Source of the DNA: Lachnospiraceae bacterium
GTDB taxonomy: Bacteria; Bacillota; Clostridia; Lachnospirales; Lachnospiraceae
NCBI GenBank assembly: GCA_017523785.1
Contig: JAFWVX010000025.1
Span: 9,255 to 73,254, forward strand
Direction: 5' to 3'
DNA length: 64,000 bases
How positions within the stretch are numbered: position 1 is the first letter of the stretch; each line of letters opens with the position of its first letter. Positions 5,453-61,200 of the stretch are shown in pieces. Under the pieces are notes generated by a model. The model was given only the letters and a program-made list of their open reading frames with translations. It had not been told where the DNA came from and searched no databases. The position numbers and the translations under genes were made by a program.

Positions 5453-6493
5453 ATGGCAAATGTAAAAAGAGGTTTAGGAAAATCTTTTGGACAAATATTC
5501 GGCGAGGACAAAGTGCAAAATGAAAATGTTGCTGTCACAGAGCCAGAGGTTCAAGTTGTCGAAAAGGTTGTTGAAAAAATAGTTGAGGTTCCGGTTGAGA
5601 AAGTTGTTGAAAAAGTTGTAGAGGTTCCTGTAGAAAAAGTGGTGGAGAAAATCGTTGAAGTTCCATCTGGTAAAAACCAAACAGGAGAGCCACTTCAAGT
5701 CAACATCAACTTTGTGCAACCAAACCCAAATCAGCCAAGAAAGAATTTTGATGAGGAAAGGCTGAACGAACTTGCCGAGTCAATCAAAAATTATGGTGTG
5801 ATAGAGCCAATTGTTGTAAGAAAAGTTGGACCTGTTCACTATGAAGTAATTGCCGGTGAAAGAAGACTTCGTGCATCAAAGATTGCGGGACTCTCTCAGG
5901 TTCCGGTAATCGTAAAAGAATACACAGATGATGAAAGAAAGGTAATAACCCTTCTTGAAAACGTTCAAAGAGAGGACTTAAATTCAGTAGAAAAAGCGCT
6001 CGGCTATAAGGCACTTATCGATGAGTTTAATTTGACTCAGGATGAGGTCGCTGAAAAGGTTGGAAAAAGCCGTTCAGCAATCACTAATACCTTAAGAATT
6101 TTATCTCTTGATGAGAAACTTCTTGAAATGATTAAGGAAGGGGTTTTGAGCGAAGGCCACGCAAGAGCCCTTCTTAGCATTGAAAATGAAGAAATCAGAG
6201 ATAAGATTGTTAAAGAGGTAGTTGAAAAAAAGCTTAGTGTTAGAAAAATTGAGGATATGGTTCGCCTTGAGAAACTTGCTAGAGATAGGAAGGAAAAAGA
6301 GGAAGCCTTAAACACAGAGAGTTTCAAGCGCTTAAAAATTCAGTTAAAAGACATAGAAAAACAAATGAGAGCTAGGCTAAATGCAGCACTCAAAATTCTT
6401 CCAAAAAATGAAAGCGCTGGTACTATCGAAATCAAATATACTACTCAAGAAGAACTCGACAGAATTTATTTACTTATTAATTCTATAAGATAA
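5453..6493 (+). CDS. parB: ParB/Spo0J with repeat-expanded N-terminal linker
   Basis: ParB box GERRLRA, an HTH segment (LTQDEVAEKVGKSRSAITNTLR), and a start 2 nt after the parA stop. Confidence 0.9.
   Translation: MANVKRGLGKSFGQIFGEDKVQNENVAVTEPEVQVVEKVVEKIVEVPVEKVVEKVVEVPVEKVVEKIVEVPSGKNQTGEPLQVNINFVQPNPNQPRKNFDEERLNELAESIKNYGVIEPIVVRKVGPVHYEVIAGERRLRASKIAGLSQVPVIVKEYTDDERKVITLLENVQREDLNSVEKALGYKALIDEFNLTQDEVAEKVGKSRSAITNTLRILSLDEKLLEMIKEGVLSEGHARALLSIENEEIRDKIVKEVVEKKLSVRKIEDMVRLEKLARDRKEKEEALNTESFKRLKIQLKDIEKQMRARLNAALKILPKNESAGTIEIKYTTQEELDRIYLLINSIR
5558..5665 (+). repeat. 3 x 36-bp in-frame tandem repeat in parB
   Basis: Encodes VEKVVEK(I/V)VEVP three times (aa 36-71). Confidence 0.85.
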
Positions 6494-39416: not shown

Positions 39417-42400
39417 ATGAAAGAGCAATTTAAAAAACTCATATCTATTATTTTAATAGTCGCAATGACTATTACTAATAATGGTTTATTTGTTTTGGCT
39501 GACAGTGTTGATAATATTGTCGACCAGAGTTTGAGTACTGCTCAAGAAACTCCAAACTATTATTACTATGAGGAAACAACGACAGTTGAAGATTATCAAG
39601 CATACCTTGAGTCAGAAAATCCAGGTGTCTATGACGAAGAAGTAGAGACAAAGGACTATGCTGACAAAAGTGAAGAGGATGAGATTGAATCATCTGAGAC
39701 TTTTGATGTGGAAGAAACCAGTAAAGAAGAATCAGATGAAGTAGAGGATACAAGTGAATCTACAGAGAACGAAGATGAGGAGGAAACAACTACTGTTCGT
39801 GAGGAAACAGAGAAAGAGACAGTAAATGAAAAAGGGGAAGCTGCAACAGAATCTAACGCTGAAGAAATAATAGAGCAAGATGAGGAAGAAGAGATTGCAA
39901 CAAGTTCAGAAATAGAAACTGAAGAGGTGATAGAAGAGAATATAGCAACTGAGTCAGAAATTTTACCTGAAGAAGAAAACAATGTTGAAAACCTTGCGAC
40001 AGAATCAGATATTAACAAAGTAGTTGCGACAGAGTCTGAGTTAGAAGAAAATATTTCTACAAATTCTGAAGCAATGATTGAAAAAGAAATTATCGTTGCT
40101 ACAGTTTCAAAAATATCTTGGAAGGTTAAAAAAGTTTTGATTGCGACATTTGCATCGATAAATGTTAAAGCAAGCGAGACTGAGAAAGAAAGAGTGGCAA
40201 GACTTGCAACTTATGCAAATGTTATCATCGTAAATGATAAAGGTGATGAAAAGATATTTAAAGTAAATCTCAAGTGGAAATTATTTAAGAAATATGATGT
40301 AAACGCAAGATCAGATAAGCAAGAAGCTCCTATACCAAAAGAAGAGTGGAGAAAAACTCTTAAGGTAGATGAGTTCATAAAAGATCAAGAAGAAGTAGTG
40401 GTTTCAACTAGAAATATCGCATTAGTTGAAGAGAGAGTTAAAGAAGAAAATGCAAAATATGAAGATAAAGAATTCGTAGTTAAGTTCCAAAACGATAGTG
40501 AAACTCAAGAAACTACAGTAAACCCAGCTGTAGAAGAAAGCAATGAAAACCCTGCTGAAAATATAGAAACAATAGAAACTACAGTAGTTATTGATGAGAC
40601 TGAAGGTGAGACTTATGAAGAAACTATTGAGACAATTATAGAGACAAGTATTGAAGAGACAAGTAATGAGATTATTGAAGAAGCAACTAAGGAAAATGAA
40701 ATTGATGAACCTACTGTTGCTGGATTTAATAATTCTGAAGACATCGCAAGTAGCAGCGATGTAGAAGAAAGTAAAGAAGTAGAGACAGAAGAAACAGAAA
40801 CTGAAGAAGTAGAAACAGTTGAGTCACAAGAAGAAAGTGAATCAGTAGATCAAAATGAAGAAGTAGAAATTCAAGAAGAACTTGCAACAGCATCTACATT
40901 AGTTGAAGAAGAAATCTCAAATGTTGATACTATGACAACAAATGGTGAAGAAATTTCTGATGAGACAATTGACTATTATGATTTACAAACAATTTATCTC
41001 TATAAAGTTGATGTACCTGCACTCGGTGATGAGATAATAGATATTATCAACAAAGAAAATTCTAATGTTGAAGAGAAAGATGAGACTGAAGAGTTGCTTG
41101 AAGAAAAACCAGAAGGAATAATCGGCGGACTCATGAAACTCTTTGGACTTGGTTCAACTGAAAGTAATGAACAAAATGATGTAGAAGAAACTAAGGAAGA
41201 AGAATTAGAAACATATTTAGAAAATGCAGAGGTTGATATCATTGATGAATCAAGGCTAGAGCCAATGGTTGCAGAGTTTGATGCACATCTTTTAGGAAGT
41301 GGTGCAACTCACGAGCAACATCAGATTTCAGTTTTTGTAAATGGCACAGTTCTGACACCAGACAATATTTTCAATTCTGTAATCGGTGGCGATGAATCAG
41401 ATATGTTAGATTTATCTGAAAATAATAGAAGAATTAAAGCAACAGGGTCAAACATATTCATTGCGGGAACTTATTATTTGCCAAGCGATATAAAAATATC
41501 AAATCAGTGGATAGTTGAAAAAAATAATACTTTGACACTTTGCTTAAATGGGCATGATGTGAAATTTGCAACAGCTGGTTGTGTAAAAGGTGAAGGAAGA
41601 GTGGTTGTATGTAACTGTGGAGGAAGCGCAACTATTTCAACTGATGGACCTACATATAATTGGCATGACAAGTGGTATGCAAGTACATCTGAGACATATA
41701 CTAAGTGGAATGAGCATTCGTTAATAGCAGGAGATGAAGTTGGAGTATATGCAAATGATAATAATATAACATTTTCAAATGTTGTAATTAAGAATCAGTA
41801 TAACGGAAGAAAAGCCGCAGCACAGATGGAAAACACGGAAATAGATGAAGCAGAGTTATCAGGTGATGGTTCTATTCTTTGGGGTAAAAAAGAAATACAA
41901 GTTTATGGAGCAAAATTCGCAAATAATAGAGCAACTAGATCAAATGGTGTTGCTGTAAATGCACAACTTGGAAAGATGACTCTTGAAGACTGCTCGTTTG
42001 TTGATAATAGAAATTTAACAAATAGAGGTGGAGCAGTAGCATTTAACCCTAAAGCAACTATTATAAATAATTGTGTGTTTAAAGATAATATTTCATTTAC
42101 TAATGGTGGGGCACTTTTTGGCAGGTCATATACAAATTCTGTTGAAAGTGTTGAAATTGGAACAAAGATTTCAAAGAGTACATTTGAAAATAATGTAGCA
42201 CTGATAGATGGCGGAGCTATATTTATGGACTATCTTTGCGAAAAAGGAGTGACAATAGAGGGAACGGAAGCAGATAAGGTAGTATTTAAAAATAATTATG
42301 CCGGTGCATCAGGTGGTGCAATATCAGTTAGACATATGAGATCGGTAGATGGACAAGAAGAAAATGCATACTCATATGAAGATCCTACAAGTAGGGGAAG

Positions 42401-45400
42401 GCTTTTAAATATTAATTATGCAGTATTTGAAGGAAATGAAGCAAAGGCACTAATTATAAATAAAAATACAGGAGCCATATCAGAAAATCCCCTTTCTTTA
42501 AAGGAAAATTTTGGTGGTGCAATAAATTTAAATTCTCAGACGATAGTATATAGAACATTCCCTACAGACAGTCCAGTAAAAGAAGTAAATATTAAAAATA
42601 GCTCGTTTAAGAATAATATAGCTAAAGGATTTAAACTTGATATTAAATCAAAAGATATAACAGGAAACTTTACAGGTGAGACATTAGCGACATACTATGC
42701 AGGAAATGCAGGTGGTGCAATTTATGCAAACAAGTTAAATAAGATAAACATAGAAGATTCAGAATTTACAGATAATAAATCTATGACAGGAGCAAACCTT
42801 TGTATAAAAGAAGCTTCGGTAAGTTTTATTGGTGGAAAATTATTAAATGGTAAAGCATATAATAATAGTTATAGTGCATCAGAGTTTTATAAGAGAGTAG
42901 TATCACCTGGCGGTGGTGCAGCATATCTTATGAACGATGCCCATCTTTCTATATCAAAAGAAACTAAGATAGAAACAAATGAAAATGCATTTTATCTTGA
43001 TGGAGGCTCTATTGATTTAGGGGCTGGAACTGTAACAGGAAATACAGGAGAATACTTAATCGGATATGCAAACTATAAGTCAAACAGAATATTGTTTAGT
43101 GGTGTAGATATTAAAGATCATACATTTAATGAGATGAGAAAGGACTATACTTCTACAAGATCTGACGCTGCAACAGGTAAGAGAAATTTTAAAGATGGAT
43201 ATTATCAGACATCTTATATTTCATTTAAAGGAACAAACCTCATAACAAATAATAAAAGAAACTTCTACACAAAAACTGGAACAACATACACAAGTAAGAA
43301 TGAAGAAGCAAATATTGTTATGACAGCATCTGATTCTAATTTACAAATGGATTTGAGCAAATATTTATTTGATGTTCCATTCACAGACCAAGATGTAAGT
43401 CAGGGAATTGGACTTTATTATGACTTTGACCCTGACCCAAATAAAGATCAGATTACCGCATATGATAGATGGACTTATGAAAATGTAAAAGTTATAGACG
43501 AGGGTGGTCTTTGGACAAACTACTTTGAGATAGATAACTCAAGTAAAGGTGAGTGGGCAGAAAACTGGAAGTTTTATATAGAAAAGAATGAGATAAGAAT
43601 GAGTCCGCACATTGTGCAGGTTAAGTTTGACTCCTATATAGAAAATGTTCCAAGAATAAAACCACAGTTCTACAATTTTAGAAAAGGTGGTGGAACGACA
43701 TTAAAAATTGCAACCCCAACAGAGATTGTAAGAAGAGACATTCATACACCAGGAAAGACTTTGCTGGGATTCCTTGGAGTAGACAAATCAAAAGATGTCG
43801 AAAATACAAAATATGATATATGGGATTTTGATAAATGTGAAATTGATCCATCAAGAACTGATGGTGATGTAATAGAGATAATCTTAGTATATACAGATGA
43901 TACAATAAAAATAAAACCATGTGGATGTGAAAATGGTAAAGCTTGTGCTCATGAAGGAGTGAGCATTAATCACTCTGATAGAGGAATTGGAACAAGTGAA
44001 GAAGAAAATAGATATTTAAATTACATTGAAGTAGCAACATACCCTCAACTTGCTTATAAATATAAGGGGAGAAAGACTCAGTATGTATTGAGTAAAGACC
44101 TTAGACTTACTGGAAATCAAGCAAAAGATTATATTGATGGTGGTATGGTTCTTAACCTAAATGGAAAAACTCTTACATATGATACAAGAGAGAGTAACGA
44201 TTCACACATCTTAGATACTACAGGAACAGATGTTATGCATACTGCAAATGACTCAAAGATTATGATCTGTGGTATAGCAACACCAGGAGCAGTAGAAAGA
44301 GGTAAGATAGTAGCTAATGGAACACATAAAGGAGCATTTATATATAGCAATACTGATGTATATCTAAGCTACCTTGACATTATGAATGTATCAGCGGTGG
44401 ATGGTTCTGATAAAGCATTTATACAAAGCGCAGATACAAATATCAATACTTATGTGAATACAAAAGAAGTAACATTTACTAACATAAATTTAAAATCAGA
44501 TTTAATTAATGCCGGTTCAAGAGTTGTGTTATCAGACACAAAGATTTCAAATGCTGAATTAGATGGTAGTGTTGTAAAACTTCGTGCTGAAGCAAACAAG
44601 GAAACCGCTTTTGAATTATTAAACACAGATATTACAGGACTTACCAAAGCAAATGCACTTCTTGGTTCGGATTTAACTAGTCCAACAGGAACAAAAGTTA
44701 GAATATCTACATCAAATATTACTAACAGTGTATTTGAAACTCAGTTAATTAAATTGGATGATTCTTCAACAGGTGCTAACTCTGAATTAAAACTTCAAGG
44801 CGAAGTAAAGATAAATGGAAACAAATTAAATTCTGGTTCAGTATTTATTTCAAATGCAGCAACAAATGGAAGCGACGTATTTGGTGTAAGCGTAGATGAC
44901 AGAATTGAAATTAACAACAACACTCTTCCACATAGCGATGGAGTAACACTTCTTACACTTTACCAGAAGTCAGTTACATTTAAGGGTGATGTATCACTCA
45001 CTGGAAATAAGACTGTTGCAAGTGGTAGAGCAACAGAAAAAGTTAGTGCTGTTAAAGCAGGAAATAATACAAGTGTGTTACTTGATGAAGTTGCTATTAG
45101 AGTAACTGATAACTTAACAAAGTATGAGTGGTATGCTGAAAATACAGACGGAACCACACAGACATTTGAGAAAGCAATATTTACTCAGGTTGCTGGAACA
45201 AAACTTAAGGCTTCAGATTCTATAATAAAGATTAGACTTGCTGTAAGTGACGAGGATGAGTCACAAAAGATTTATGAAAATTGGTCAGCAAATAATATTA
45301 TAGGAGAAAAGGAAGCAGAGGCTACATTCTTAAGAGATGATTCTTATTCTGAAGATGAAGTTGAAGATATCTACAAGAAAGGAAAAGATGAAGAAACTTC

Positions 45401-48400
45401 TGATATCTATATGGGATCAACTTATGTTGCAGTTAGATATAGACTATATAATTATAAGGCAAATGTAGATGAGAGGCTAGATGAATCAGCAGGTTATACA
45501 CAAGCAGCAATACAAAGAGTAGAACCTGATGTATATACTTTACTTGATACACCACAATATAAGTTTGATTTTTCAAGAACTTCAGTTATGTGGGAAGCAT
45601 TTGCATACAGAAAATCTGATGGAACTTATGATTATTCTGATGAAAGATTATACCCAGAGAAGACAACACATATAGGAATTAGATCAACAAAGAGTGTATT
45701 GGTATCAGGATATATTTATAACTATAACAATAAGCGACATGTGCATGAAGGAAATATAGAGTTATGGACTGAGGCAAGAAATGAAGGACATTTACAAGCA
45801 ACTAACTCATTTGTCTTCTTGCATAATGACTTAGAAATTACTAGACCACTTAAGTATAAACCAGAGAAGACTTACCACCTATGTTTAAATGGACATAAAC
45901 TCATAGTTAATAATAGTATAGAATGGTTTAAGTCAAGCACTTGTAAATTGATAATTTGTGATTGCCAGAAGACAGGAAGCATTGTCCAAAATAGTGGCGA
46001 AATTGCAAGTAAGTTTATAAATATAAGTGGTGGAGAAATTGATATTAGCGATATCACATTTGGACCATTTAAGAATGTAAATAATACAGAGTTTGTAAAT
46101 GTAGCAGAGACTGTTAAAGTAAACATTGATAATGTAGTGGTAAAAGAAATCAATATGGATAACTTTGTAAAGACTGATAATGCATTTATAAATATTAAGA
46201 CAAATAATTTAGCAAGTATAAGTAATGTGACATTTAGATCAAATAAGATGTTATCTAATGATAAAACCAATGCAATATTCACAGTAGATAACAAGAGCGG
46301 TGGAAGCATTAACATTGATGGTATAAGTTTAGAGAGTAATGAAGTAAACGCTGACACATCTAAAAATATAAATGGATCAGGATATGTAGTTAAAGTTAAT
46401 GGATATGATAGAGTTACACTCAACTCGCCAACATTAAAATCCAATAAGGTTGTTTTAGGTGCCCCTATACAGATAAACGGTAATAGTTCAGCAACATCAT
46501 ACAATAAAATTCTTACCATGACGAATGTTACATTTGAAGAAAACCAAAAGAATTTTGTAAATAGTATGAAACTTGAAGACCAAGCAAAAGATGGAATATC
46601 TGCTAACTATGCAAGTATTAATTTCAATAACATAATCATAAATGGCGGATCTTTTAAAGGAAATAGATTCAATTCAAATGCAGCAACTTTAGCAGGCGAC
46701 GATGGTGCAGTAATTGATTTAACAAACTATGATGCAAATCTTACAGTTAAAGATGTAATGTTTGATGGAACTGGAACAACTGCAAATGATAATGTATTTG
46801 GTATGTTGATTCTTGATAAAGGCGATGACTTGTTTGAGAATGTAACAATTACAAATTACAATATGGGATCAACTGCTTATATGCTTCTTGCAAAAGGAAC
46901 TTCAAATAGTCCTGCTGGAACATATGTGGGTAGAACAACATTTAGAGGAACAACAAAGTTTACAAACAACAAAGCTAAATCAATGGTCAGAGTTGAGAAT
47001 GAAAGAAACGATGTCAACAATGATTATGAAGGATTATTGTTGATTGATGGAACAACATTTACTAACAATACCGCAAATAATCCAAAAGTAACTGGTCTTA
47101 GCGGATTGATAGAAATTGACTCAAATACTATAGTAGTAGCAAGTGGAGCTAATATAGCTAAGACAACAGGAATTGCAGTCTATATCGCTACAAGTGAGTT
47201 TAGAATGTTTAACTCAGAGATTAGTGGCGGATTAGGAAACGATGCGGCTGTATATGTAAAAGATGCTGGAAGACTTGTCCTTGGTGATAAAGTTATAGTA
47301 AAAGATAATAAGATAAATATTTATCTTGACGGCGATGGCAGCATCAATGCTCAAATAAAAGCAATGGATGGACATCCAATATCAGCAACATCAGAAATTT
47401 ATATTACGGTTCCAGACATAGAATATAATTTCTTTAATCAATGGGGAAATAATTATATAAAGAATTATAATTATCATCAAGGCAACACATATGCATATTT
47501 ACCAAATGATTTATTTAAACTTGATGCTGCAATAGCAAGCAACAGAAAGATATATATTAAAGGTGATATTGCTTCAGGAAACCAAGAGTTGTGGGTATCA
47601 TCTAACCAAGCAACATATGAATATGCAACACTTATATTCTTTGATAAAGATATAAAAGGACCTAAAGAGATAGCAAGACAGTATATAAAGATTGGACAAA
47701 AGACAAAACTTGATAGAGTGCAAGTTGATTATATCTCAACATTAAGTCAAGTGTGGATGACAGAAGCAAATGGTGATAAACCAGAAGAACAAACTATGTG
47801 GAGACTTTACAGCAATGGACAATATCACGACTTTGAAGTAGTTAATTATGAAGCAGGAAAAACATATTATGCATATTTAACAAAGAAACATGTTCATAAG
47901 ATTTGTGGACCTGATTCACTTGTGCCTTGTGGTCCAAATCACGCAGATGGAATAGCTCACACAGTCGACTATGAGTTCTTACAAGTAGGAACTAATGATA
48001 ATATAATAATTGAAGCTTCAAGAAGTAACTATATAGGACTTTCAAATAATTTGACTATTAATCAAGCAGCACTTAACTCGTTAAGTAATAGAGAAATAGT
48101 ATTCTGTATAAATGGATATACTTTGACATTTGAAAAAGATGCAATGCTTAATACAAGTCACAGTTTTGCACTTATTAACTGTGAAAGCACAGGTGTTGTA
48201 ACAGTCAATGAAAATGAAAAAACAACCAACTCACTTATTAGTGCAAGTGGGGCGGGAAATACATTTAGTTTATATAATATTAATTTCCATAATTTTGAGA
48301 CAGAAGCATCTGTAATAAAAGTTCAAAATGTAAAAACAGTAAGTGAGAATGTAAAGTTTACAGAGATTGAATCAACAGCACCTAATGGAATATATGATAT

Positions 48401-51400
48401 ACAAAGTGGAACTGTCTATGTTGAGAACTTAGCATTTACCGACAACATAGCATCTGGCTCTTCTCTTCTAGATTTGAGATTTGGAAGCTTTACAGCTGGA
48501 AAGATTGGAAATATAAATATTAACAATAACACTTATACCAACAAACTTTTATCACTTAGTGGCACAGGAAATATGGATTCAATCGTAGTTAACAACAATA
48601 CTATGATAGAAGGTGGAGGAGCAGATTCTTATGGTGCAATCTATGTTGCAAATGGTGCCAATATAACATATGCACATGATGCAGTTATATCAGCAAATGA
48701 TTCATCCATAAATGAAGAGTCAAAAGGAGGAGCACTTACAGTATACGGAAGACTTAACTTTAATGGTAAGATGACTCTTGAAGATAATAAGGCAGGTCTT
48801 GGAGGTGCAATCTATGTAGATAGCACAGGTTCGCTCCATGTGACAGGTGAAGCATACTTTAGAGAAAATGAAGCAAAGGTGGGAGCAGCAATTTATGCTA
48901 AGAACTGGTCAAATATAAATTTCTCAAGTGTAACATATGATGGAAATCGAGCAAAGACTCATGGTGTAGTTGCATTTGGAGGAAATTATAATAGAGGAAT
49001 AGCAACATTTAAGAATCATACAAGAAGTTCAAGAGATCTAATTTATAATATTAATGACAACGGCACTGATAGCTTTACGATAGATAAAGAAACATTGTTC
49101 GTTGATAATACTCTTGCAGATAGCATTATATACTTAAGAAATGTATCAAGTGCAAATGTTGAAATTTCATATTTAAGCACTGGTAATTCTGTAAAGAGTT
49201 TTGTGGAGATTGCAACAAGTTCAATCACTATAGATAATTCAGTTATTACTGAAAACACTTTCAACGATTCGGCATTTATATTTAATAATCCAATTACTGC
49301 AAGAGTTGCAAGTATATCTGTATATGAAAACAAGATTACAAATGCAGTATTAAGTGTTAGCGGAGGAGCTGTAGAGATAGGCAATAGAATGACGTTTAGA
49401 GACAATGTCCCAAGACTAGGAAAGACAAAAGAATTGTATGTAAGCGGAAAAGGTGGATACTTTAAAGCAACTGAAAAGATAACTATGGGTAAGAAGTATT
49501 TGTTCTCTGCTTACACAAATGGAATAAAGGTATTTGAGAAGTGGAATGCAACTTATATTGATAATTATGATAATCCTCAAAGCAAAGAACCAGGACGTTA
49601 TATGGTTACACCTGAAAACTCAGATACAATCAAACTTTCAGATGATGACAAGGAAAGAGGATTAGGATTTTATAAAGTAGGAAGCACCGATAATCAAGAT
49701 ATATACATTGGTAAAGAAGGAATTGACTTTATACAACTTAGATTTATTGGCCCAGAAAAAGATAATGCAGTGTTTGCTTCGCAAAATCTTGAGAAGGGAA
49801 AAGAGACTAAACTTGATAAGGTTGATACTTTAGAATGTGATTTAGCAAAACAAAAATGGGTAGCGACAATGAGTGATGGAACAGCTAAGACATTGATATT
49901 TACTTCAACTCAAACTGCTTCATCATCAGATACAATCAATATACTTTATACAAGACCTCACTTACATAAGATTTGTGGAATAACAAGAAATGAAACTTGC
50001 AACCATACAAATGGAGCAAGTCATACTGAAATAGAATATCAAATAGTGGCTAATGCAGCAGAGTTTGCAAGCACTACAAATCAATATGTATATATTAAAG
50101 ATAATATAACAGTTGATTCTACAATTAACCTTGCAAGTGGAATAATAGGCATTTGTTTAAATGGGTATACATTAAAGATAACAGGAGGAGCAAACTCATT
50201 ATTCAATACAAATAATGAGCTTAGTATTTGTAATTGTAAGCCAAAAGGCGGTATCACAACAGGTGATGAAGTTCAGGAAGCTGCAATTATTAACTACACA
50301 GGAACAAGTTTAGCAGTTTATAATGTTGACTTCTTCGGAATTAATACAAATAAGTCAGTAATTAAACTACCAAATACAGGAACAACAACTCTATACACTG
50401 AGAACTTAAGATTTAGAAACAATAAAGATTTAGGTTATGACACAGTAATAGATAGTGTTGGAAATAATACAATTTACATTAATGATGTGACATTTGCAGA
50501 TAATAAAAATGAAAGCGACAACAATATGCTTGATATAGATAGCGGATATATTGTAAGCACATTGTCATTTATCAATAATGATACACACTCAAGATTAATG
50601 TGGTTCTGCAATAGTAATCTCGTGAATATAAAGTCATTAATTGTAAAGAACAATAAAATAACTGACGATAGTATGCTTGCATATGTTGATAGTGGTGCAA
50701 AGGTAAATGTTGCTAACGATGTGCTATTTGAAAACAACATAGTTGATGGAGAAGCACTCCTTGCAATGGATACAAGAATAGAGTTTGCAGTGCTTGGCAC
50801 AATGTCGTTTATCAACAATGTAGCAAAGAAGCACGCTGCTATGGAAATTGAAGATAACACAACTATCTCAGCAAGAAACATGTTATTTGACGGAAATAAG
50901 AATTTAGAAGCAAATAATGCAATTGTTGAATGGTCAGAATCAACACTTAGACTTGATAATGTCGTATTTAAGAATCATACAAATGCAAGTGACATACTTC
51001 TTGGAAATGTAGATAATAATGGAACTAGTAAGATTTATTTGTCGAGTCCATCATTTATAAACAACAAGGGAATTGCAATAAAACTTGACGGTATAGAAGA
51101 TGGTTATATAACTGGAATAAAACTTACTAAAGATTTAAATAATAACTTCACTAATGTATTAAATATTAGAAACAGCTCAGTTTCAATTACTGATTTTGTA
51201 GTAAAAGATAATAATTTAGTAAATAGTGCAGTAGCGGTTAGCGAATCAGATAAAGTAGAACTTAAAGACATAGAGATTAACAACAACTCTATAACAACTA
51301 GTGGAGCATCAGCACTATCATTAAATGGTAATGGAAGTATCCTTAAAGTAAAAGGCTTAATAAGTGTTGACGGCAATACTAGCGACATTTCATTAAGTGA

Positions 51401-54400
51401 TAATTCATACCTAAAAGCAAGCGGAATGGTAAGCGGAAAGTCTAAGATGAGTTTTGCTATAAATGGAACAACACAAAAAGTGTTTGAAGGTTGGGATAAG
51501 AATCATATAGAGACTTTTGGAATGACTGCTTCTAAGTCAACTCCAAAGAGATATACATATACACCAGAGAATTCAGGCTTATTTGCAGCTAAGTCACCAA
51601 GTGGATATGCAATTTATAAAGGTGGAACAGGTGATAATTTAAGCATATATGCAGGAAATAGAGATTCATATAGTGTCCTTTCATTTATCTATGTGGATGA
51701 GGATTATGTAGAGTCAACTCTTGAGACACAGAATGTCATAAAGGGAGCAACAGCAATTGATACTCTTCTTGATGTAGTAGATACTTTTGAATATGAGTTA
51801 GAGCATCAAACTTGGTATGCTCCAAATCCATCAACAGGTGCACATGATGTAAAATGGGAGTTTAAGAATGATGTAATTTCAAATATCAATAACGATGCAC
51901 AAATTAAATATGTGAGAAAACATATTCATAGAGTATGTGGAACTAAATACGAAGATACTTGTGACCACAAAGAGACAAATGTTAGACATGCAAATACAGT
52001 TATCTATGTAGATGCTACAAGTTCAAATCCAACATATTGGCCACGTAGTGCAGAGTATATAAATCTTTTAAATGATATAGAGTTTAATAATAGACTCGAT
52101 TTAGAGAATCTTAAAGGTATATGTTTGAACGGACATAAGCTCATTGTTGGAAATATGCATAACAACTTTATGTCAATTAGCTCTGAACTAAATATCTGTG
52201 ACTGCAAACATAAAAAGACTACAAACGGAGCTATAACGATAAAGAACGGAGTGACATTACAAGATAGTTTAATCTATGTTGGGTCAGGCGGAACATTCAA
52301 TGCATACAATATCAACTTTGAAAATATAACTTTGAAAGATTATGTTGACTTTACTACTACATATACATTTGCAATAGAGAATTCAAATAATGGTACAGTA
52401 TATCTTGAAAGACCAGTATTTAGAGGACCAACTGAAGCTGGTGAAAATGGACTATTAAAGAATAGAGGTGGTGCAAGTCAGTTTAAAGTTATTGAGGCAT
52501 TGATTACAGATGTTACTCTTAACAGCCCATCACCATTACTTACACTTACAGGTAGCTTTAATATATCGACTATATCAGTAATTAAGAATTATGGTTATAC
52601 TGTTCCACTTATAAAAGTGACAGATGATGTTTCAGTAGGAAGCTTTGTGCTATCAAATAACTCAGGCTCAACTGGTCAAGGTCTTATATCTGTAGATGAA
52701 GGTGTAACATTAACACTTACTAATAATAATACATTTGAAGGAAATGAGTCACAAGGTGGAGGAGTTATAAAGGTTGCTGGAACTCTTGTAGCTGAAAAAG
52801 ATTTGATATTTAAAGACAATGTGACAGTAAAAGGAAGCGGAAATGGTGGAGCTCTTTATGTCAATGCAACTGGTAAAGTAATAACAAAAGGAAAGACTAA
52901 ATTTATAGGCAATGAGGCAATGCATGGTTCTGCAATTTATGCTGAGAATATAACTGAAGAAGCACTTAAAAATTTGAATGAACCTTATTTTGAAGCAAAC
53001 ACAGCAATAACAAGTGGTGTTGTATATTGGTCAGGAGAACTTAGACTTTCTACTCCAACGATAGTTAAACATGAACCATATAATAAGACAACTCTTAAAG
53101 GTGTAAGAAGTGGTATATTCATAAATGAAAAATCTGGAGATAAGTTAATACTTGAAAATCCAGTGTTTGCAGACAACAATATAGTAGGAAATGATGATAG
53201 TGCATCAGCAATAAAACTACATGGTGTTGTTGATGGAAGTAGAGTTGTAGGCTTTGATGAAAAATCTAAGAATAACTCTATGAATGACTTTATCTTCTTA
53301 GAAGATAGTGATATGGAGATCAGTGGTGAAATCAACAGGACATCATTAAATAATAATTTTAAAGAGACTGTAATTAGCATTAAGAATGCTGGAAAAGTAA
53401 TGCTTAAAGATTTGTCTATTGAAGAGCAGACAGTAGGAAATGCAGCTCTTTACATATCAGGTGCACCGGTATCTATAGATGGCAAGATAAGAGTTACTTC
53501 TAATAGTACTGCAGAACGTATAGATGCTAAGAATATTTACTTAACTGATGAGTTAGCATATTTTATAGCATCAGGAAAAGAAGGTGCTGTATCTTACATT
53601 GATGAATCGTCAATTATGGACATTTCAACTTCTGGACAAAAAGAGGCAAAGGTGTTTGAAGGATGGAATGAGTATAATTTTGAGCATTATGACAAACCAT
53701 ATGTTGATAGCAGCACGAATAAATATATGTATACTCCAGAGAACTCAGGTATATTCGCAGTGGGCAACGACTTAGAGGAAAAAGGATATGAGTTCTTTAA
53801 GAAAGGTTATGCTGGAGATGGTGATGGAAATGGAGACATTTATCTTGGCACAGATGAAAAATTTGTAAAACTTAAATACTATAATGATGTAGAAGAAGTT
53901 GAAGACTATGAAGAGAAAGATGGCGACAAGGAATATTATGGCAATCAGAACATAGCAAAAGATATTCCAACAAAACTTGATAAGGTAGATTCTCAAGAGT
54001 ATGAGATCGAGAAGCAAGAGTGGTATGTAGGATATCAAAGTAAGGATACTTATGACCACCTTGAGAAGTTCAACCCAGCTAATCCTCAACCAACGATTGC
54101 AGGAGTAAATGGTGTTGTAGAAGAGTTTTCAACAAACCAAGAGATTAAATATCATCAGTTCCATATTCATAAAATATGTGGATTAAAATTAAGTGAAGAA
54201 TGTGAACATGAAGGACATGCGGACCATGTTGGAACAGTAGAGTTTAATGATGTAAATACTATAGCTGAACTTGAGGCAGCAACTGGATATGCAGTGCTAG
54301 TAAAAGACTTAGATATTGCAAATATGCAAAGAGCACTAAGATTAAATCCTGGTCTCACAGGCATTTGTCTAAATGGCCATACAATAATGGGTGATGGTAG

Positions 54401-57400
54401 ATATGGATTAATGAATATAGACCATGCATTCACGATTTGTGATTGTAAGTTAGAAAAAGGAACAGGAGCAATTACATCTGATGAATCATTTACTCAAGCA
54501 TTTGATGTAATCAACATTAACACAAGTGCAGAAGTAGGTATCTATAGAGTAAGAATAAAAGATATAGCATTTGCAGCAGGTTATGCAGTAAATGTAGAAC
54601 AAGGAAATGTATATATCGGATCATTAATCATAAGCGAATGCACAAGAGTAGGTTCAAATGGTGTTATAAGAGCAAATGCTAATGTAGTTATTGACCACTT
54701 GTCGTTTGAATCTAATAAGATTTCGGTTGCAAATCCTATGCTAAGAATTAATGACAAGATGAACATCAAGAATCTGAATATTAGTGAAAACGAGGTAGAG
54801 GACTCTATAGTAATAGTTGATTCAAATACATCTTTAGGTAACCTCATAGCTAATAGCAATAAGAGCACTGGACGAGGTGTGATAAATATAAACTCTGGTA
54901 AAACTTTGACTGTCGATTATCAAGAGTATAGTGATAACGAAGCAAGACTAGGTGGAGCTTTATATGTCTCTGGAACATATATAAATAGAGATAAGGGATT
55001 ATCTTGGAACAATAACATTGCAACAGAAAAAGGCGGAGCTATCTATATTGCTGAAGGCGGAAAGATTAACTTATCACAAGAGAATTCATTTATTACAAAT
55101 CAAGCAGCAGAAGGTGCCGCAATATATGCTGAGAAATTAAGTAGCACAGACTTAGGAATACCTAAAGCAGAGTTTATTGATAATAAAGCAACAAGTGGTG
55201 GCGTAGTATCATTTGGTGGAGAACTTGAAATTTCGGATGTTAAGTTCACTGACACTAATCAGAGTACTGCCTTTATAGATAATATTAATAAAAACACAAC
55301 TATAGATAAGGCAATTATATCATCTGTATCATTTGTGAGAAATGCAACTGGCGGAAAAGGTATAACTCTTACAAATGTTAGAAATGGATCAAAGGTAGAA
55401 AATATTACTGGAAATGATAACACACTTGATACTTTAATAGAATTCAATAATGTGACAAGTGGCAACAGAGTTTATGTAACCAACGTAACAGGAGTTTCTT
55501 CTAATACGTTTGGTGGTGCTGCTATATCATTTAATAATGTTGCTGATGCAGTATTAAACAATGTAACGCTAAGTGGAAATACATCTAATGGATTTGGTGC
55601 AATGCTTATATATGGCAGCAACACAAAAGTTTACTCAGTAGGAGAATTGAGGCTTATAAATAATACAAATACTGGAGCATATGGTGCAGCCATAACAATT
55701 CTTGATAAAGCTAATCTTGAAGAGGACGGCGGATTAATAGTGACAGGAAATAGATCTAACCAAGGCGGAGCAATCTATCTTGATGGAACTATGGGAGTTG
55801 AGTCACAAGGTTCAAAACCACTCAAGGTATCAGTAAACTATATTAATTCAACTAACGATACAAAGAACATATATGTAGCTAATGTAAACTCTTATGTATA
55901 TGCAACTGGAAGATTGAGCGATGATACACAACTTGGATTTACTGCTGGCGATGTAAATGTTACTGCATTTAAATATTGGAATAGTAGTTATATAAGTAAG
56001 ATTGGAAGCACTGATAAATTCACTTATACTCCTGAAAATTGTGGAATGTTCTTAGTCGATACACTGTCAGCTAATGCAAAACAAGAATTATATAAGAGCG
56101 GAACTGGAAATGACATAGTAGTGAAACTTGGAGTAAACTTTACAAAACTTCGTTTCGTATCTGCAGATAAGAAGACAGAGTATCTAACTCAAAATATTGA
56201 AAGAGGTGTAAATACAAAACTTGATAAAGTGCTAGTAGAGACTGTAACAGAGAAGTGGATAGCACCAAATAAACAATCAGCATCAGATTATAAGTGGCAG
56301 TTTAATAGATCAGATATCGTTGCTAACTATAGTTCTGAAGAAGAATATATATATAAACTATTCACATATTCAATAGTATATACAGGCGGGTCAAAAGGTG
56401 GCTCAAGAACTTATAACAACATAGAATATGGAGAAGCAGTATATGCAATAGAGAATCCTTTTGGCGGTGATGGATTTAAGTCTTGGAAACTTAGAAATGT
56501 TATATCGGGATTACCAAGAGAATATGCAGTTGGTGATTTGATTAAAAATGTCTGCCAAAATGACGGAGGTATTGCATACTTTGATGCAAGATGGAGCGGG
56601 GAAGTATGGGTTAAGATAGATCCAAATGCAGAGAGATACGGATTACAAATAGAATATAATGCAATATATGATTTTTATGGCAATGCAAATTCAGGAATAA
56701 GACTTTCTGCAACATACCCTTATTCGTTAGGTGGCTCATATAATACATATAGCTACAATACAAAGCCAGATGGAAGTGGAACAAGCTATGCAGTAGGAAC
56801 AACAGCATCATTTAATGATGATGTAGTGCTCTATGTAATCTGGGGAAGAGGAAGCAGTCCACATAGTGGTGGAGGCGGAACTAGCGGTGGTGGTGGCACT
56901 GGAGGCGGCGGAGGCGGCCGTGGAGGTGCTAGAATTAGTGGTGGCACAATTAGACCAGAGGACTTATTAACTGGACCTGGAGTAGAAATGGCTGTAGAAC
57001 CACTACCTGTAAATGTTGGAGTATTCACAGTTGACGAATATGGAAATATAAGAGACAAGGATCAAAATATAGTTGGTAATATTTACATAGGTGACAGAGT
57101 AAATGCCGATGGAAGTTTTACAGCCGTTAATGGCATAACGGTTTATCCTAACGGAGTTATAGTAGACATGTTTGGAAATATTTATAACACAGATGGAACT
57201 ATAATCACAGCTACAGGAAACAAATATTTCGTAAACGGTGATGTGATGGATCCAACTGGAGCTATCTATCATCCAGATGGATCAATAACTCTTCCTAATG
57301 GTGTTGTGAAAGATGCAGATGGCATAATTCATTATCCAGATGGATCAATAATGTTACCAGATGGAACAACATATTTGGTTGATGGAACGACAATATCTCC

Positions 57401-58249: not shown

Positions 58250-61200
58250 ATGAAGAAGCAATTTAATTTTAAGAGAGTAATTGCAATCACACTAGTGGTG
58301 GCAAATGTTTTTGCATCCACAGGATTTTCTGTGCTTGCAAACAGTGTAGCAAATATCGTATATGATAGTGCTATGAATGAAAAGGAGCTAAAGAACTACT
58401 ATTATCTTTATCAGGAGGAGAAGTATCGCTATGAAGAACAGACACGATACTACGCGGAATATAACGCAGAAGATAATATTAGCGATGAGCTGAAGGAAAA
58501 GGTCAAGAACAGGCTTGATGAAGCTCTAGAGCAAGAAGGGGAAGTTGAAGAAACTACCTCTATTAATGATGCAACCCTTGAAGAAAAAAATGATGAAGAA
58601 ACAAACGATGAAAATTCCCTTGAAGATAATGATAATATAGAAGAGAAAGAAGACGAAGAAGAACCAGAGGATGATAAGACTGAGACTAGTGAAGAAGTTG
58701 TAGGAGAAAACTCTGAAGAAGAAAGCACTACAAGTGCTGAAGAGACAAGCATTGATGAGACTAAAGAAGAGTCTGAAGAGGAAAGCACTACAAGCACTCA
58801 AGAGACTAGTGAAGAAGAGACTACAGAAGAAGTAAAAGAAGAGAGCACTACAGCGACAGAAGAGTCAAGCGAAACAACAGTAGAGACAACCACAATAAGT
58901 GTTGAAACTAGCACAATTAGCGAGACAGACATAGTTGAAGAAGAAAAAGTTGCAAGTGAGAGTGAAGTAGTTGTTGAAGAAGAAAAGGTTGCAACAGATT
59001 CAGAAGTTGAGCATGTTGAAGTAGCTACAGAGAGTGAAGTTGAAAATATTGCAACTGATAGTGAGGCTGAAGTAGCGACTGATAGTGAAGTAGAAAAGGC
59101 AACAAGCAGTGAGTTAGAAGAATTGGTAGCAACAAAGTCAATAGTTGTTATTGCGACGGTTCCAGTTGTTAAATGGGAAATTGCAAAAATTTATTTGACT
59201 ACTTATTCAGAGATTGATTTAGCAAAAGAAGAAGGAAAAGACTCTGATGATTATATCAAGAATAAACTTGCTAAGGCTGCTAAAGTTTTAGTTAAGAATA
59301 ATCTTGGAGAGAGCAAGTTATTAACTATAAGAATTAAGTGGAAATTACAAAAGAAGATAGTTATAGCAACTCGTGCAGAAGCGAGAACTATGCCATTCAA
59401 AAAGTCTAAGTGGAAAAAAGATTTTGGAGTAGGAAAAGTTAATGCAACTACTGAGATAGTAAAAGCAACAAGCGATAAGATAACAGTGGTTGATAATTTG
59501 AAGGAAGAATTGCAGGCAGCACATGGTGATGAAGCCCTAGTTATAATAAAAGTCACAACTGCAAGTATTTTGAATGACAATTTCAAAGTAAAAACCAGTG
59601 TAGTAGAGTTAGATGAAAATAAAGTTGAAGAGATTAAGACTCAAGATGAAACCGAAGCAAAGGTAGAGGCTGAAGAGACTAAAGAGACAGCAACTGAAAC
59701 AGATACAGTAGCTGAAATAGAGATAGTAGAGCCAACAGTAGCAGGTTTCGCTAATTCAGATGTAGCAACAGATTCAGATGCAGAACCTGAGTCAGTTGAA
59801 GATACTATAGAAGAGAGTAGCGATGTAGCAGATGTAGACGACAATGCAGAGACTGAAGACAACGCAGAGAATGAAGAATATGCCGAGACAAACGAGAATG
59901 TTGAGTTAGATGACAATGCAGATACTGTTGTATTAGATGAAGCAACAGCAAGTGAGGCAGATAGTATAGCTACTGTTTCAGATGCAGAAAACATCGATGA
60001 TTCATCTCTTTATAAGGATGCTGCAGCTGGAACTACTGGAACAGATGAAGAAGGTATAAAATTAGATGGAAACTATGATTTATCAGAAATGAGTGTATAC
60101 ACGCCAGATATGGAAGATCTTGTAAATCAAGTATTAAATAAATTAAACGGAACAGATACTGAAGAAGTAATTGAAGAAGAGATAATAGATGATGAAATAA
60201 ATGATGATGAGGATGGAGGAGTTTTGCAATCTATTACTAATTTCTTTGGAAATTTATTCTCAAACGATTCTGACGAAGAGTTAGAAGAAAGTGAGGAGAC
60301 AGAGGAGACTGCGACAGAAAACAATGAAGAAGAAGACATAGTTTTAGAAGAATTAAAAGAGATTAACTTATCAAAACTTGACAATGCAAAACTTGATTTG
60401 AAGGGTGCTGCAAATGAAGTTGAGTTGGGAGAACTTCCTTTGCCAGAAGTTGAGATAAATAAATTTGACTTGTTTGGTTCTGGCTATAATGAAGGACATG
60501 GTTCACCAACTTCAACAAATCGACACCCTATATGTGGACTTGAAGAATCTACTGATGGTTCAACATGTACAGGTCACACAATTGATGGAACAACATTTTA
60601 TCATGATAAATTATCAGGAACAAATACATCTTATAGAGGAATAGAAGTTAGACTTCCTGATTTGGCTAAAAAAGATGCTTCAACTGTCAGTGTAACAACT
60701 GATATGGCGGTAGTAATTTTTAAAGATGCAGGAAAAGATAATTATACATTAAATAGCAGTATAAAAGTAGAAGATGGTGTAAACTTCTACATATGTACAA
60801 ATGGAGTAGACATAGTATTTGCATCTTACAGTAGAATCTATGGTAATGGCAACATTTACCTTTGTAACTGCATGGAAGATGATGCATCTGTTTCAAATAG
60901 AAATGTTTCTCACATAACAACAGAAAATGATTTCACAGTTTATGATAGATATGGACAGAAGTGGCCAGCAACAATGTCAAGACCAAACGAGCAAAGAGAA
61001 GACCCTTTATTCTCGGGCCAAAGTGTCTACATCTACGGAACAGATACTGCAAATAGATGTAATATAATGTTTGAAAATATAAAGATAAGAGGTAACTTTA
61101 GAAACACAATTGCACTTGAACAGATGGAAGATCCAACAATAGTTAAGAACTGGTCTCCTTATCATGGATATGGTTCATTGGTAGATGCAACAACTGATTT

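What the first reader, a model, noticed from the sequence alone, without database searches (positions are those of the whole stretch)
43911..54460. Recurrent Cys/His 'knuckle' + CLNGH + ICDC triad marking every module start
The module boundaries carry H-x-H-K-(I/V)-C-G-x(4-7)-C-x(1-4)-H-x(3-6)-H: HVHKICGPDSLVPCGPNHADGIAH at 47889, HLHKICGITRNETCNHTNGASH at 49959, HIHRVCGTKYEDTCDHKETNVRH at 51921, and HIHKICGLKLSEECEHEGHADH at 54162. Degenerate forms are PCGCENGKACAHEG at 43920 and HVHEGN at 45738. About 45-60 aa later comes (L/I)C(L/I)NG(H/Y), and about 20 aa after that (I/V)C(D/N)C. The same triad occurs in the downstream paralogue (HPICGLEESTDGSTCTGH at ~60524, then YLCNC). Four to six conserved Cys/His residues in an extracellular protein of an anaerobe suggest a metal-binding (zinc-knuckle-like) or disulfide cap on each beta-helix. 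I know of no description of this motif.
Basis: partly seen in the sequence, partly recalled or inferred. Interest (0 to 1): 0.7.

Follow-up and report, generated by a model that had tools for sequence, protein, structure and literature searches.

The report
Cys/His cap on beta-helix adhesin modules
Each beta-helix module of a 6,233-residue surface protein from a rumen-type Lachnospiraceae bacterium starts with a conserved cysteine/histidine cap that probably holds one or two zinc ions; the cap recurs in more than 1,700 protein clusters yet matches no Pfam or NCBIfam family.

Summary
One ORF (39417-58118, +) encodes a 6,233-aa secreted protein with seven PMP-type beta-helix modules and C-terminal choline-binding repeats. 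Caps cover 11% of the protein but hold 28 of 42 Cys and 32 of 72 His. Orthologues at 56-65% identity keep every motif. An exhaustive profile search found 1,763 representative proteins with the same cap, often 2-10 copies each. No Pfam-A, NCBIfam or PDB entry covers it. Sequence statistics favour metal ligands over disulfides. Knuckles keep Cys+His at 6 while swapping Cys for His, a third have three Cys, and the helix Cys is sometimes replaced by His. The residues split into two four-ligand sets that are lost independently. Site A is HxH + C(LNG) + xDC. Site B is the loop C-x7-C-x-H-x5-H. The window's own protein shows all three states: M0 and M2 have A only, M1 has B only, M3-M6 have both. My reading is a Cys2His2 metal staple, single or double, on the N-terminal cap of each helix. 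AlphaFold placed the knuckle with low to moderate confidence and gave no coordinates, so convergence of the side chains is untested. This is a widespread, undescribed domain variant, not a new kind of system.

The parts
39417..58118 (+). Giant ORF of 6,233 aa: signal peptide, acidic low-complexity N-terminus, seven beta-helix modules (M0-M6), a Gly-rich linker and C-terminal choline-binding repeats.
   Evidence: Chlam_PMP/POMP repeats lie in the helices and Choline_bind_3 at the C-terminus.
41310..41618 (+). M0 cap, site A only: HEQH (aa 632-635), LCLNGH (Cys709, 41541) and VCNC (aa 732-734). There are no loop cysteines.
   Evidence: The H-x2-H is conserved in orthologues P0049 and P0050.
43917..44276 (+). 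M1 cap, site B only: PCGCENGKACAHEGVSINH loop. HxH is deleted, the C(LNG) Cys is replaced by Asn (LNLNGK, 44154), and xDC is replaced by ICG.
   Evidence: The same state is seen in orthologue P0255 and in P0052.
45738..45965 (+). M2 cap, site A only: HVH (45738), LCLNGH (45882) and ICDC (45957). There are no loop cysteines.
   Evidence: Conserved in P0049, P0050 and P0053.
47889..48182 (+). M3 cap, sites A and B: HVH, loop CGPDSLVPCGPNHADGIAH (47904-47960), FCINGY (48105) and LINC (only the second Cys of xDC, 48174-48182).
49959..50237 (+). M4 cap, sites A and B: HLH, loop CGITRNETCNHTNGASH (49974-50024), ICLNGY (50154) and ICNC (50229-50237).
51921..52205 (+). M5 cap, sites A and B: HIH, loop CGTKYEDTCDHKETNVRH (51936-51989), ICLNGH (52122) and ICDC (52197-52205).
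54162..54446 (+). M6 cap, sites A and B: HIH, loop CGLKLSEECEHEGHADH (54177-54227), ICLNGH (54366) and ICDC (54438-54446). This module was the one modelled.
58250..64000 (+). Downstream paralogue, which runs off the window. It has the same signal peptide and acidic N-terminus, followed by one cap and a beta-helix.
60521..60871 (+). Paralogue cap: RHPICGLEESTDGSTCTGH (H1 replaced by Asn, loop complete), YICTNG (60788) and YLCNC (60857).

Best explanation
The motif is the ligand set of a structural metal site, most likely Zn2+, in the N-terminal cap of each right-handed PMP-type beta-helix module. The protein is a choline-binding-repeat-anchored surface protein, a putative adhesin.

The conserved residues form two independent Cys2His2-type sets:
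- Site A is H-x(1,2)-H plus the Cys of C-L-N-G (end of the first strand of rung 1) plus the last Cys of x-D-C (turn after the stacked strand of rung 2). It ties the N-terminal segment to the first two full rungs.
- Site B is the roughly 17-20-aa loop inserted straight after HxH, C-G-x6-C-x-H-x5-H in this protein. Elsewhere the second Cys comes from an 'HxHCxC' position, and the last ligand is His or Cys. It folds as a small zinc knuckle.

The protein is exported unfolded into a strongly reducing habitat where disulfides are unreliable. There, metal ligation would nucleate and lock the cap and shield the open edge of the first rung. This would be the anaerobe's counterpart of the disulfide-bonded caps of eukaryotic extracellular solenoids.

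Shown: the motifs, their conservation, their position in the predicted helix, and the co-variation pattern. Inferred: metal binding, the identity of the metal, the A/B partition, and the stabilising role.
For: Conservation:
- Across 600 cap instances in 166 proteins, C(LNG) is Cys in 97%, L 98%, N 92%, G 98%, and the second Cys of xDC 94%.
- Where the knuckle is aligned, H2 is 100%, C1 99% and H1 91%.
- Orthologues at 56-65% identity keep all 4 knuckles and 6 CLNG while the residues between them change.

Metal ligands rather than disulfides:
- Cys+His within 28 aa of H1 equals 6 in 226 of 337 unique knuckles and 5 in 81 of 337.
- Composition switches between 2C+4H (123) and 3C+3H (97), and 114 of 337 have three Cys.
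- The second Cys comes either from the loop (180) or from HxHCxC (116). The ligand after H3 is His (147) or Cys (73).
- xDC becomes CDH in about 3% of caps.

Two separable sites:
- 143 caps have HxH plus the helix Cys pair but no loop ligands. Of the 88 caps with no upstream Cys at all, 91% still have H-x(1,2)-H, against 10% in random windows.
- HxH lies 15-20 aa closer to CLNG in those caps, which fits deletion of the loop.
- Caps from several lineages have lost HxH, the CLNG Cys and usually the last xDC Cys together, yet keep a four-ligand CxC...H.C or C..C.H loop. These are the window's M1 with its orthologues, P0075 (two caps), P0081, P0189, and P0099/P0178.
- HxH against the helix pair gives a 2x2 table of 472/7/55/11, odds ratio 13.5 (not corrected for relatedness).
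- The C(LNG) Cys and the last xDC Cys are lost together: both lost 12, only the xDC Cys kept 2.

Position and habitat:
- AlphaFold gives a confident helix (pLDDT 80-97). Cys4984 ends strand 73-77, Cys5008 ends the stacked strand 98-101, and Cys5010 lies in the following turn.
- The nearest genomes are rumen and reticulum Lachnospiraceae MAGs.
Against: - There is no direct evidence of metal.
- The knuckle is modelled with low (42-53) to moderate (68-77) confidence, and no coordinates are available. Whether HxH can reach the two helix cysteines is therefore untested.
- In M0, M2 and M3 the Cys count is even, so C1-C2 and C(LNG)-xDC disulfides remain possible for this protein.
- Caps lacking the helix pair are few (18 of 545). 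The profile used to collect caps was built from caps that have the pair, so the double dissociation rests on a small and biased sample.
- Exceptions exist. P0160 keeps the full knuckle with Asp at the CLNG position. 55 caps have the pair without a regex HxH.
- The paralogue has Asn in place of H1.
- The role of the first Cys of CDC (50% Cys, 32% Thr) is unexplained.
Confidence: 0.55

Rival explanations
1. Disulfide cap. C1-C2 close the knuckle loop and C(LNG)-xDC bridge rungs 1 and 2. The histidines are conserved for packing or other reasons.
For: M0, M2 and M3 have four cap cysteines, an even number. The CLNG Cys and the last xDC Cys are lost together, as disulfide partners would be. Disulfide-stabilised caps are known in beta-helical ice-binding proteins, which appear among the weak Foldseek matches.
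Against: M4-M6 have five cap cysteines, and 114 of 337 knuckles have three. Cys<->His interchange at fixed ligand number, and xDC->CDH, make no sense for disulfides. H2, H1 and H3 are 100%, 91% and 77% conserved. HxH persists in 91% of caps that have no knuckle Cys. The likely habitat is the strongly reducing rumen (that disulfides are unstable there is inference).
Confidence: 0.15
2. Functional rather than structural metal site. The HxH/Cys cluster would be a catalytic or ligand- or metal-sensing centre, for example a hydrolase site, or a site that binds host or plant ligands through the metal.
For: HxH motifs occur in metallohydrolases (background knowledge). The beta-helix fold is shared with pectate lyases, glycosidases and tailspike depolymerases (weak Foldseek matches only).
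Against: Each proposed site has four protein ligands including two Cys, which is typical of structural zinc and leaves no open coordination position. The site lies at the cap, not in a groove along the helix. No enzyme family matches in Pfam or NCBIfam. Site B is dispensable in about 40% of caps.
Confidence: 0.08
3. The conserved Cys and His are simply buried stacking or turn residues of the first rungs (a Cys/Asn ladder) and of the preceding strand. There would be no cross-link of any kind.
For: The CLNG Cys and the first Cys of CDC are in register on consecutive strands. The first CDC Cys is freely replaced by Thr (32%). A similar x-L-x-G-N-G start motif without Cys aligns weakly in the L. 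reuteri SRRP beta-solenoid (5ny0, E=9).
Against: This does not explain six ligand-type residues in a 28-aa loop held at constant number with Cys<->His swaps. It also does not explain the joint loss of HxH, the CLNG Cys and the last xDC Cys, which lie 50-95 residues apart.
Confidence: 0.12

Closest known systems
Chlamydial polymorphic membrane protein (PMP) repeat beta-helices (Pfam PF02415 Chlam_PMP; TIGR01376 POMP_repeat)
   Same: The body of each module carries GGA(I/L/V)/FxxN-type repeats that score above the curated cut-offs. Distant homologues found with whole modules are PF02415 proteins. The predicted fold is a right-handed parallel beta-helix.
   Different: PMP models cover only the repeats, and none covers the Cys/His cap. 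This protein is a Gram-positive, choline-binding-repeat-anchored chain of seven helices in tandem, not an autotransporter passenger. Most PF02415 hits lack the cap motifs.
Lactobacillus reuteri SRRP binding region, a Gram-positive beta-solenoid adhesin (PDB 5NY0/5NXK; PMC5866549)
   Same: It is an extracellular right-handed beta-solenoid of a gut Firmicute that functions as an adhesin (PMC5866549). The start of its helix aligns weakly with the YYLxxD...LCLNGHxL segment (E=9), and 5nxk is a weak Foldseek match.
   Different: The matches are not significant. The aligned segment has no Cys (TIYGNGKY) and no HxH or knuckle. It is a single solenoid, not tandem modules.
Small structural zinc motifs: zinc knuckle (CCHC) and classical C2H2 finger
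   Same: Site B has two Cys followed by two His within about 17 residues, a Cys2His2 ligand composition. Site A also has 2 His + 2 Cys.
   Different: The spacing (C-x7-C-x-H-x5-H) and ligand order (HxH first) match neither CCHC (C-x2-C-x4-H-x4-C) nor C2H2 (C-x2-4-C-x12-H-x3-5-H). No Pfam zinc-finger model hits the caps. The context is extracellular and bacterial. Site A is assembled from three segments 50-95 residues apart.
Cysteine-rich capping modules of extracellular solenoids (LRRNT/LRRCT of eukaryotic LRR proteins; disulfide-bonded capping head of ice-binding beta-helices such as FfIBP)
   Same: The logic is the same: a Cys-rich element at the end of a solenoid covers the exposed first coil. 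This comparison rests on background knowledge; FfIBP entries appear only as weak Foldseek matches.
   Different: Those caps use disulfides and have no conserved His. There is no sequence or significant structural similarity, so the resemblance is an analogy only.
HxH metal sites in phage tail-fibre and spike beta-helices (T4 gp37, P2 gpV type)
   Same: An HxH motif binds a metal ion in a beta-helical fibre (background knowledge, not tested here).
   Different: Those sites are octahedral Fe sites formed by six His on the axis of a trimer. Here the helix is predicted to be monomeric and right-handed, the partners are Cys, and the site sits at the cap.

Membership tests
Chlam_PMP / POMP repeat beta-helix (PF02415, TIGR01376) | Repeats matching the family HMM above the curated cut-off | tested here: met
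   PF02415 scores 22.5 bits against a cut-off of 20.6 in the M0 segment. TIGR01376 scores 16.4-20.7 bits against a cut-off of 15 in the M0, M3 and M6 segments. This applies to the helix body, not to the cap.
Chlam_PMP / POMP repeat beta-helix (PF02415, TIGR01376) | Right-handed parallel beta-helix fold | tested here: met
   The AlphaFold model of aa 4908-5110 shows stacked short strands with pLDDT 80-97. Foldseek returns only beta-helix proteins, all non-significant.
Choline-binding (cell-wall-binding) repeat surface proteins | C-terminal choline-binding repeats matching the HMM | tested here: met
   PF19127 Choline_bind_3 scores E=2.2e-13 and 50.4 bits against a cut-off of 27 in aa 5640-6233. 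Related NCBIfam repeat hits appear.
Zinc knuckle, CCHC type (PF00098 and relatives) | C-x2-C-x4-H-x4-C spacing and an HMM match | tested here: not met
   The window spacing is C-x7-C-x(1,2)-H-x(5,6)-H. No zinc-knuckle family appears among Pfam hits for 52 diverse caps at E<=1.
Classical C2H2 zinc finger (PF00096, PF13912) | C-x2-4-C-x12-H-x3-5-H spacing and an HMM match | tested here: not met
   No hit on the caps. The PF13912 hit precomputed for P0045 lies at residues 648-656, far from its knuckle at 121-145.
Structural zinc site in general | Four Cys/His side chains converging on one point with tetrahedral geometry | not testable with these tools
   The models are returned without coordinates. 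Knuckle pLDDT is 42-53 or 68-77.
Structural zinc site in general | Stoichiometric bound metal | not testable with these tools
   This needs ICP-MS, a PAR assay or anomalous diffraction on recombinant protein.
Structural zinc site in general | Ligand positions tolerate Cys<->His exchange but not other residues | tested here: met
   Knuckles with 2C+4H (123) and 3C+3H (97) both sum to 6. The ligand after H3 is His in 147 and Cys in 73. xDC becomes CDH in about 3%.
Any curated protein family covering the cap (Pfam-A 2025, NCBIfam 20.0, PDB sequences) | A significant profile or sequence match over the HxH...CLNG...xDC region | tested here: not met
   The window segments give 0 relevant families. 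For 52 diverse caps, no family is matched by more than 3 members and none is significant. PDB best E-values are 0.67 and 2.4. All 57 cap-only database proteins have no precomputed Pfam hit on the cap.

The most novel reading that the evidence does not exclude
The cap is a previously undescribed extracellular domain family that binds two metal ions through two Cys2His2 sets. One set (HxH + CLNG Cys + xDC Cys) is assembled from three distant chain segments and acts as the folding nucleus or lock of the beta-helix. Folding and stability of these large gut and rumen surface proteins would then depend on external zinc. This would be a general strategy by which strict anaerobes replace disulfide bonds in secreted solenoid proteins.
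Probability: 0.3. Interest if true: 0.6.

Novelty: new variant of a known kind. Interest (0 to 1): 0.45.

Why it matters
Very large beta-helix surface proteins are common in gut and rumen Clostridia and are almost wholly uncharacterised. A conserved cap found in over 1,700 protein clusters, and unannotated in Pfam and NCBIfam, gives a handle for delimiting their modules and for annotating them. It also helps in designing soluble single-module constructs. If the two-site metal model holds, it would show how strict anaerobes stabilise secreted solenoids without disulfides. It would also link the assembly of these proteins to zinc availability in the gut. The model makes a sharp prediction that the protein in this window can test by itself: M2-type caps bind one metal, M1-type one, and M3-M6-type two.

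Tried and rejected
- The word-indexed homologue search with the six window caps found only one protein. The exhaustive profile search was needed.
- The search for related loci with the diverse cap alignment failed for lack of a conserved stretch. A narrower alignment found only three close rumen MAG loci, so the taxonomic range of distant caps remains unknown.
- Cluster look-up returned no source names for ten representatives.
- PDB sequence searches with two profiles found nothing meaningful: angiogenin and an FMN-binding protein at E>0.6.
- Foldseek against the PDB with both models gave no match below E=0.1.
- Five literature searches found no description of the motif. These used PMP/beta-helix/zinc, 'CLNGH', giant proteins in Clostridia, beta-helix N-terminal cap/zinc, and extracellular structural zinc in anaerobes. 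The library is open-access only, so this is absence of evidence.
- Adding the upstream linker domain to the model raised knuckle confidence only to 68-77, and the linker itself stayed below 57.
- I looked for model coordinates in the sandbox and found none.
- I rejected the His of CLNGH as a ligand: it is His in only 50% of caps, Tyr in 18% and Lys in 15%.
- I rejected linkage of the first CDC Cys to the 'HxHCxC' variant: odds ratio about 2, uncorrected for relatedness.
- I rejected the zf-C2H2_6 hit in P0045 as relevant because it lies elsewhere in that protein.
- Neighbouring genes (dnaX, recR, cvpA-like, an ABC importer) give no functional clue.

Full report
**What is there.** The finding lies inside a single ORF, 39417-58118 on the + strand, encoding 6,233 aa.
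- The protein starts with a signal peptide and a long acidic low-complexity region.
- Seven beta-helix modules follow. I call them M0-M6; their caps begin near aa 626, 1495, 2100, 2817, 3507, 4161 and 4908.
- After the modules come a Gly-rich linker and C-terminal choline-binding repeats (PF19127, E=2e-13).
- The helices carry PMP-type repeats above the curated cut-offs (PF02415, TIGR01376).
- A paralogue starts at 58250 and runs off the window.
- The neighbours are housekeeping genes (dnaX, recR, a CvpA-like gene).
One database homologue is named as from a Lachnospiraceae MAG.

**Check of the observation.**
- H.H..CG occurs at 47889, 49959, 51921 and 54162.
- C[LI]NG[HY] occurs six times and [IV]C[DN]C five times, with the stated spacing.
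- The caps occupy 11% of the protein but hold 28 of 42 Cys and 32 of 72 His (p=2e-17 and 9e-13).
- The modules are only 21-33% identical, yet these columns are invariant. This is selection, not recent duplication.

**Conservation elsewhere.**
- Full-length orthologues at 65% (P0255) and 56% (P0049, P0253) identity have the same four knuckles and six CLNG motifs. Ligand residues are unchanged and the residues between them are substituted.
- An exhaustive HMMER search over 1.84 billion representatives, using a profile of cap plus flanks, found 1,763 proteins at E<=1e-3 and 631 at E<=1e-10. Most have 2-10 matched stretches.
- A local search of the retrieved proteins gave 600 cap instances in 166 proteins.
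- In those instances the CLNG Cys is 97% conserved, L 98%, N 92%, G 98%. The last Cys of xDC is 94%, the Asp 89%, and the first Cys of CDC only 50% (Thr 32%). The His of CLNGH is only 50%.
- The knuckle is aligned in about 55% of caps. There H2 is 100%, C1 99%, H1 91%, G 87%, H3 77% and C2 69%.
- The collection profile contained these residues, so the percentages are somewhat inflated.

**Is it already described?**
- No Pfam-A or NCBIfam model matches the cap in the window segments or in 52 diverse caps even at E<=1.
- The 57 cap-only database proteins have no precomputed Pfam hit on the cap.
- PDB sequence searches with two profiles found nothing.
- Foldseek with both models found nothing below E=0.1, only generic beta-helices.
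- Literature searches found no description. The library is open-access only, and InterPro member databases other than Pfam and NCBIfam were not available.

**Metal ligands or disulfides?** Four lines of evidence point to metal ligation, and none is explained by disulfides.
- Ligand count. I counted Cys and His in the 28 residues from H1 in 337 unique knuckles. The sum is 6 in 226 and 5 in 81. The composition switches between 2 Cys + 4 His (123 knuckles) and 3 Cys + 3 His (97). Three cysteines occur in 114.
- Interchange. The second cysteine is supplied either by the loop (C-x2-8-C, 180 cases) or by the residue two before C1 ('HxHCxC', 116 cases). The ligand after H3 is His in 147 and Cys in 73.
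- Helix position. The last Cys of xDC is replaced by His ('ICDH') in about 3% of caps.
- Histidine conservation. The His residues are as conserved as the Cys residues.
- The habitat inferred from the nearest genomes is strongly reducing (plus general knowledge).

**Two separable sites.** The ligands do not behave as one block.
- Of the unique caps lacking the full HxHxxC knuckle, the 88 with no upstream Cys at all still have H-x(1,2)-H in 91%, against 10% in random windows of the same proteins. That HxH lies 40-59 aa before CLNG instead of 50-79, as if the loop alone had been deleted.
- Conversely, caps in several lineages lack HxH and have Asp or Asn in place of the CLNG Cys. Most also have Ser, Thr or Gly in place of the last xDC Cys. 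They nonetheless retain a four-ligand loop. Examples are GCICGG...GHTC, CNCGG...C...HTC and CQHC.
- Over 545 unique caps, HxH against the helix pair gives a 2x2 table of 472/7/55/11 (odds ratio 13.5). This is not corrected for relatedness, and the collection is biased towards caps with the pair.
- The CLNG Cys and the last xDC Cys are themselves lost together.
- The window protein shows all three states. M0 (HEQH) and M2 (HVH) have HxH + LCLNGH + [IV]C[DN]C and no loop Cys. M1 has PCGCENGKACAH but no HxH, LNLNGK and ICG. M3-M6 have everything. The M1 state is conserved in orthologue P0255.
- This suggests site A = {H1, H2, CLNG Cys, last xDC Cys} and site B = {C1, C2 or Ck, H3, H4 or C3}. Each is a Cys2His2-type set.

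**Structure.**
- The AlphaFold2 model of aa 4908-5110 (33-row alignment) has mean pLDDT 81.9, with 80-97 across the helix.
- Cys4984 ends strand 73-77. Cys5008 ends the stacked strand 98-101. Cys5010 sits in the next turn. One rung and a short strand-helix cap precede them.
- The knuckle scored only 42-53. Adding the upstream linker domain raised it to 68-77, with HIHK in a short hairpin, while the linker stayed poor.
- The tool gives no coordinates. The decisive check, whether the side chains converge, could not be made.

**Most likely mechanism (inference).** After Sec export the chain folds outside the cell.
- Site A would tie the N-terminal segment to the turns of rungs 1 and 2.
- Site B would fold the inserted loop into a small knuckle.
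- Together they would cap the open edge of the first coil and nucleate helix folding, without relying on disulfides.
- My confidence is about 0.55 that the residues are structural metal ligands, and somewhat less for the exact A/B partition.
- The rivals are a disulfide cap (0.15), plain packing residues (0.12) and a catalytic or sensing metal site (0.08).

**Comparison with known systems.**
- The helix body belongs to the PMP-repeat beta-helices.
- The anchoring is of the choline-binding-repeat type.
- The nearest characterised Gram-positive analogue is the L. reuteri SRRP beta-solenoid adhesin (PMC5866549). Its helix start aligns only weakly and has no Cys or His.
- The cap resembles zinc knuckles and C2H2 fingers in ligand composition only. 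It fails their spacing and HMM tests.
- Functionally it parallels the disulfide-rich caps of eukaryotic LRR ectodomains and of ice-binding beta-helices.

**Verdict.** This is a real, strongly conserved and very widespread cap that matches no family in Pfam-A or NCBIfam. I rate it a new variant of a known kind (solenoid capping, structural zinc) with moderate interest. It offers a clear biochemical test using the three cap types of this one protein.

Noticed in passing
window 24551-26737 (+): A 728-aa protein made of seven DUF4379 'probable treble clef zinc finger' repeats (Pfam E=8e-125). It is unrelated to the giant ORF.
   Followed up: no
window 53892-54161 and the equivalent roughly 90 aa before each knuckle (e.g. 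51651-51920, 49689-49958): Each knuckle is preceded by a conserved linker (QN[IV]xKGxxTKLDxVD ... W ... IxY). It has no Pfam hit, and AlphaFold confidence is only 39-57. By eye it resembles a Listeria-Bacteroides-type repeat; this was not tested.
   Followed up: partly
window about 62700-63600 (+), in the downstream paralogue: After its single beta-helix, the paralogue switches to repeats of the form FxGCTxLxS[VI]DLSN. By eye these look like BspA-type leucine-rich repeats. They were not scanned.
   Followed up: no
P0202, P0204, P0213, P0214, P0219, P0226, P0227, P0229 (N-termini; not in the window): Distant cap-bearing proteins carry a second conserved cysteine motif, CxCExACTAExxNxxCxxCGAExAxxExC, between the signal peptide and the knuckle. 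It has no Pfam annotation.
   Followed up: no
window 56850-57000 and 57000-57500 (aa about 5815-6030 of the giant ORF): A poly-Gly/Arg stretch (GGGGTSGGGGTGGGGGGRGG) is followed by short 'GxIxxxDGxI' repeats with a weak DUF3659 match (E=0.0065, below cut-off). These come before the choline-binding repeats.
   Followed up: no
window 39417-41300 and 58250-60490: The giant protein and its paralogue share an unusual N-terminus. It has acidic low-complexity runs (ATESE-type repeats) interrupted by a conserved basic segment (…KWKLxKK…). No family matches it.
   Followed up: no
window 45872-46519 (-) and other 100-215-aa ORFs antisense to the giant gene: The ORF list shows several antisense ORFs inside the giant gene. 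They are most likely by-products of the AT-rich repetitive coding sequence rather than genes.
   Followed up: no
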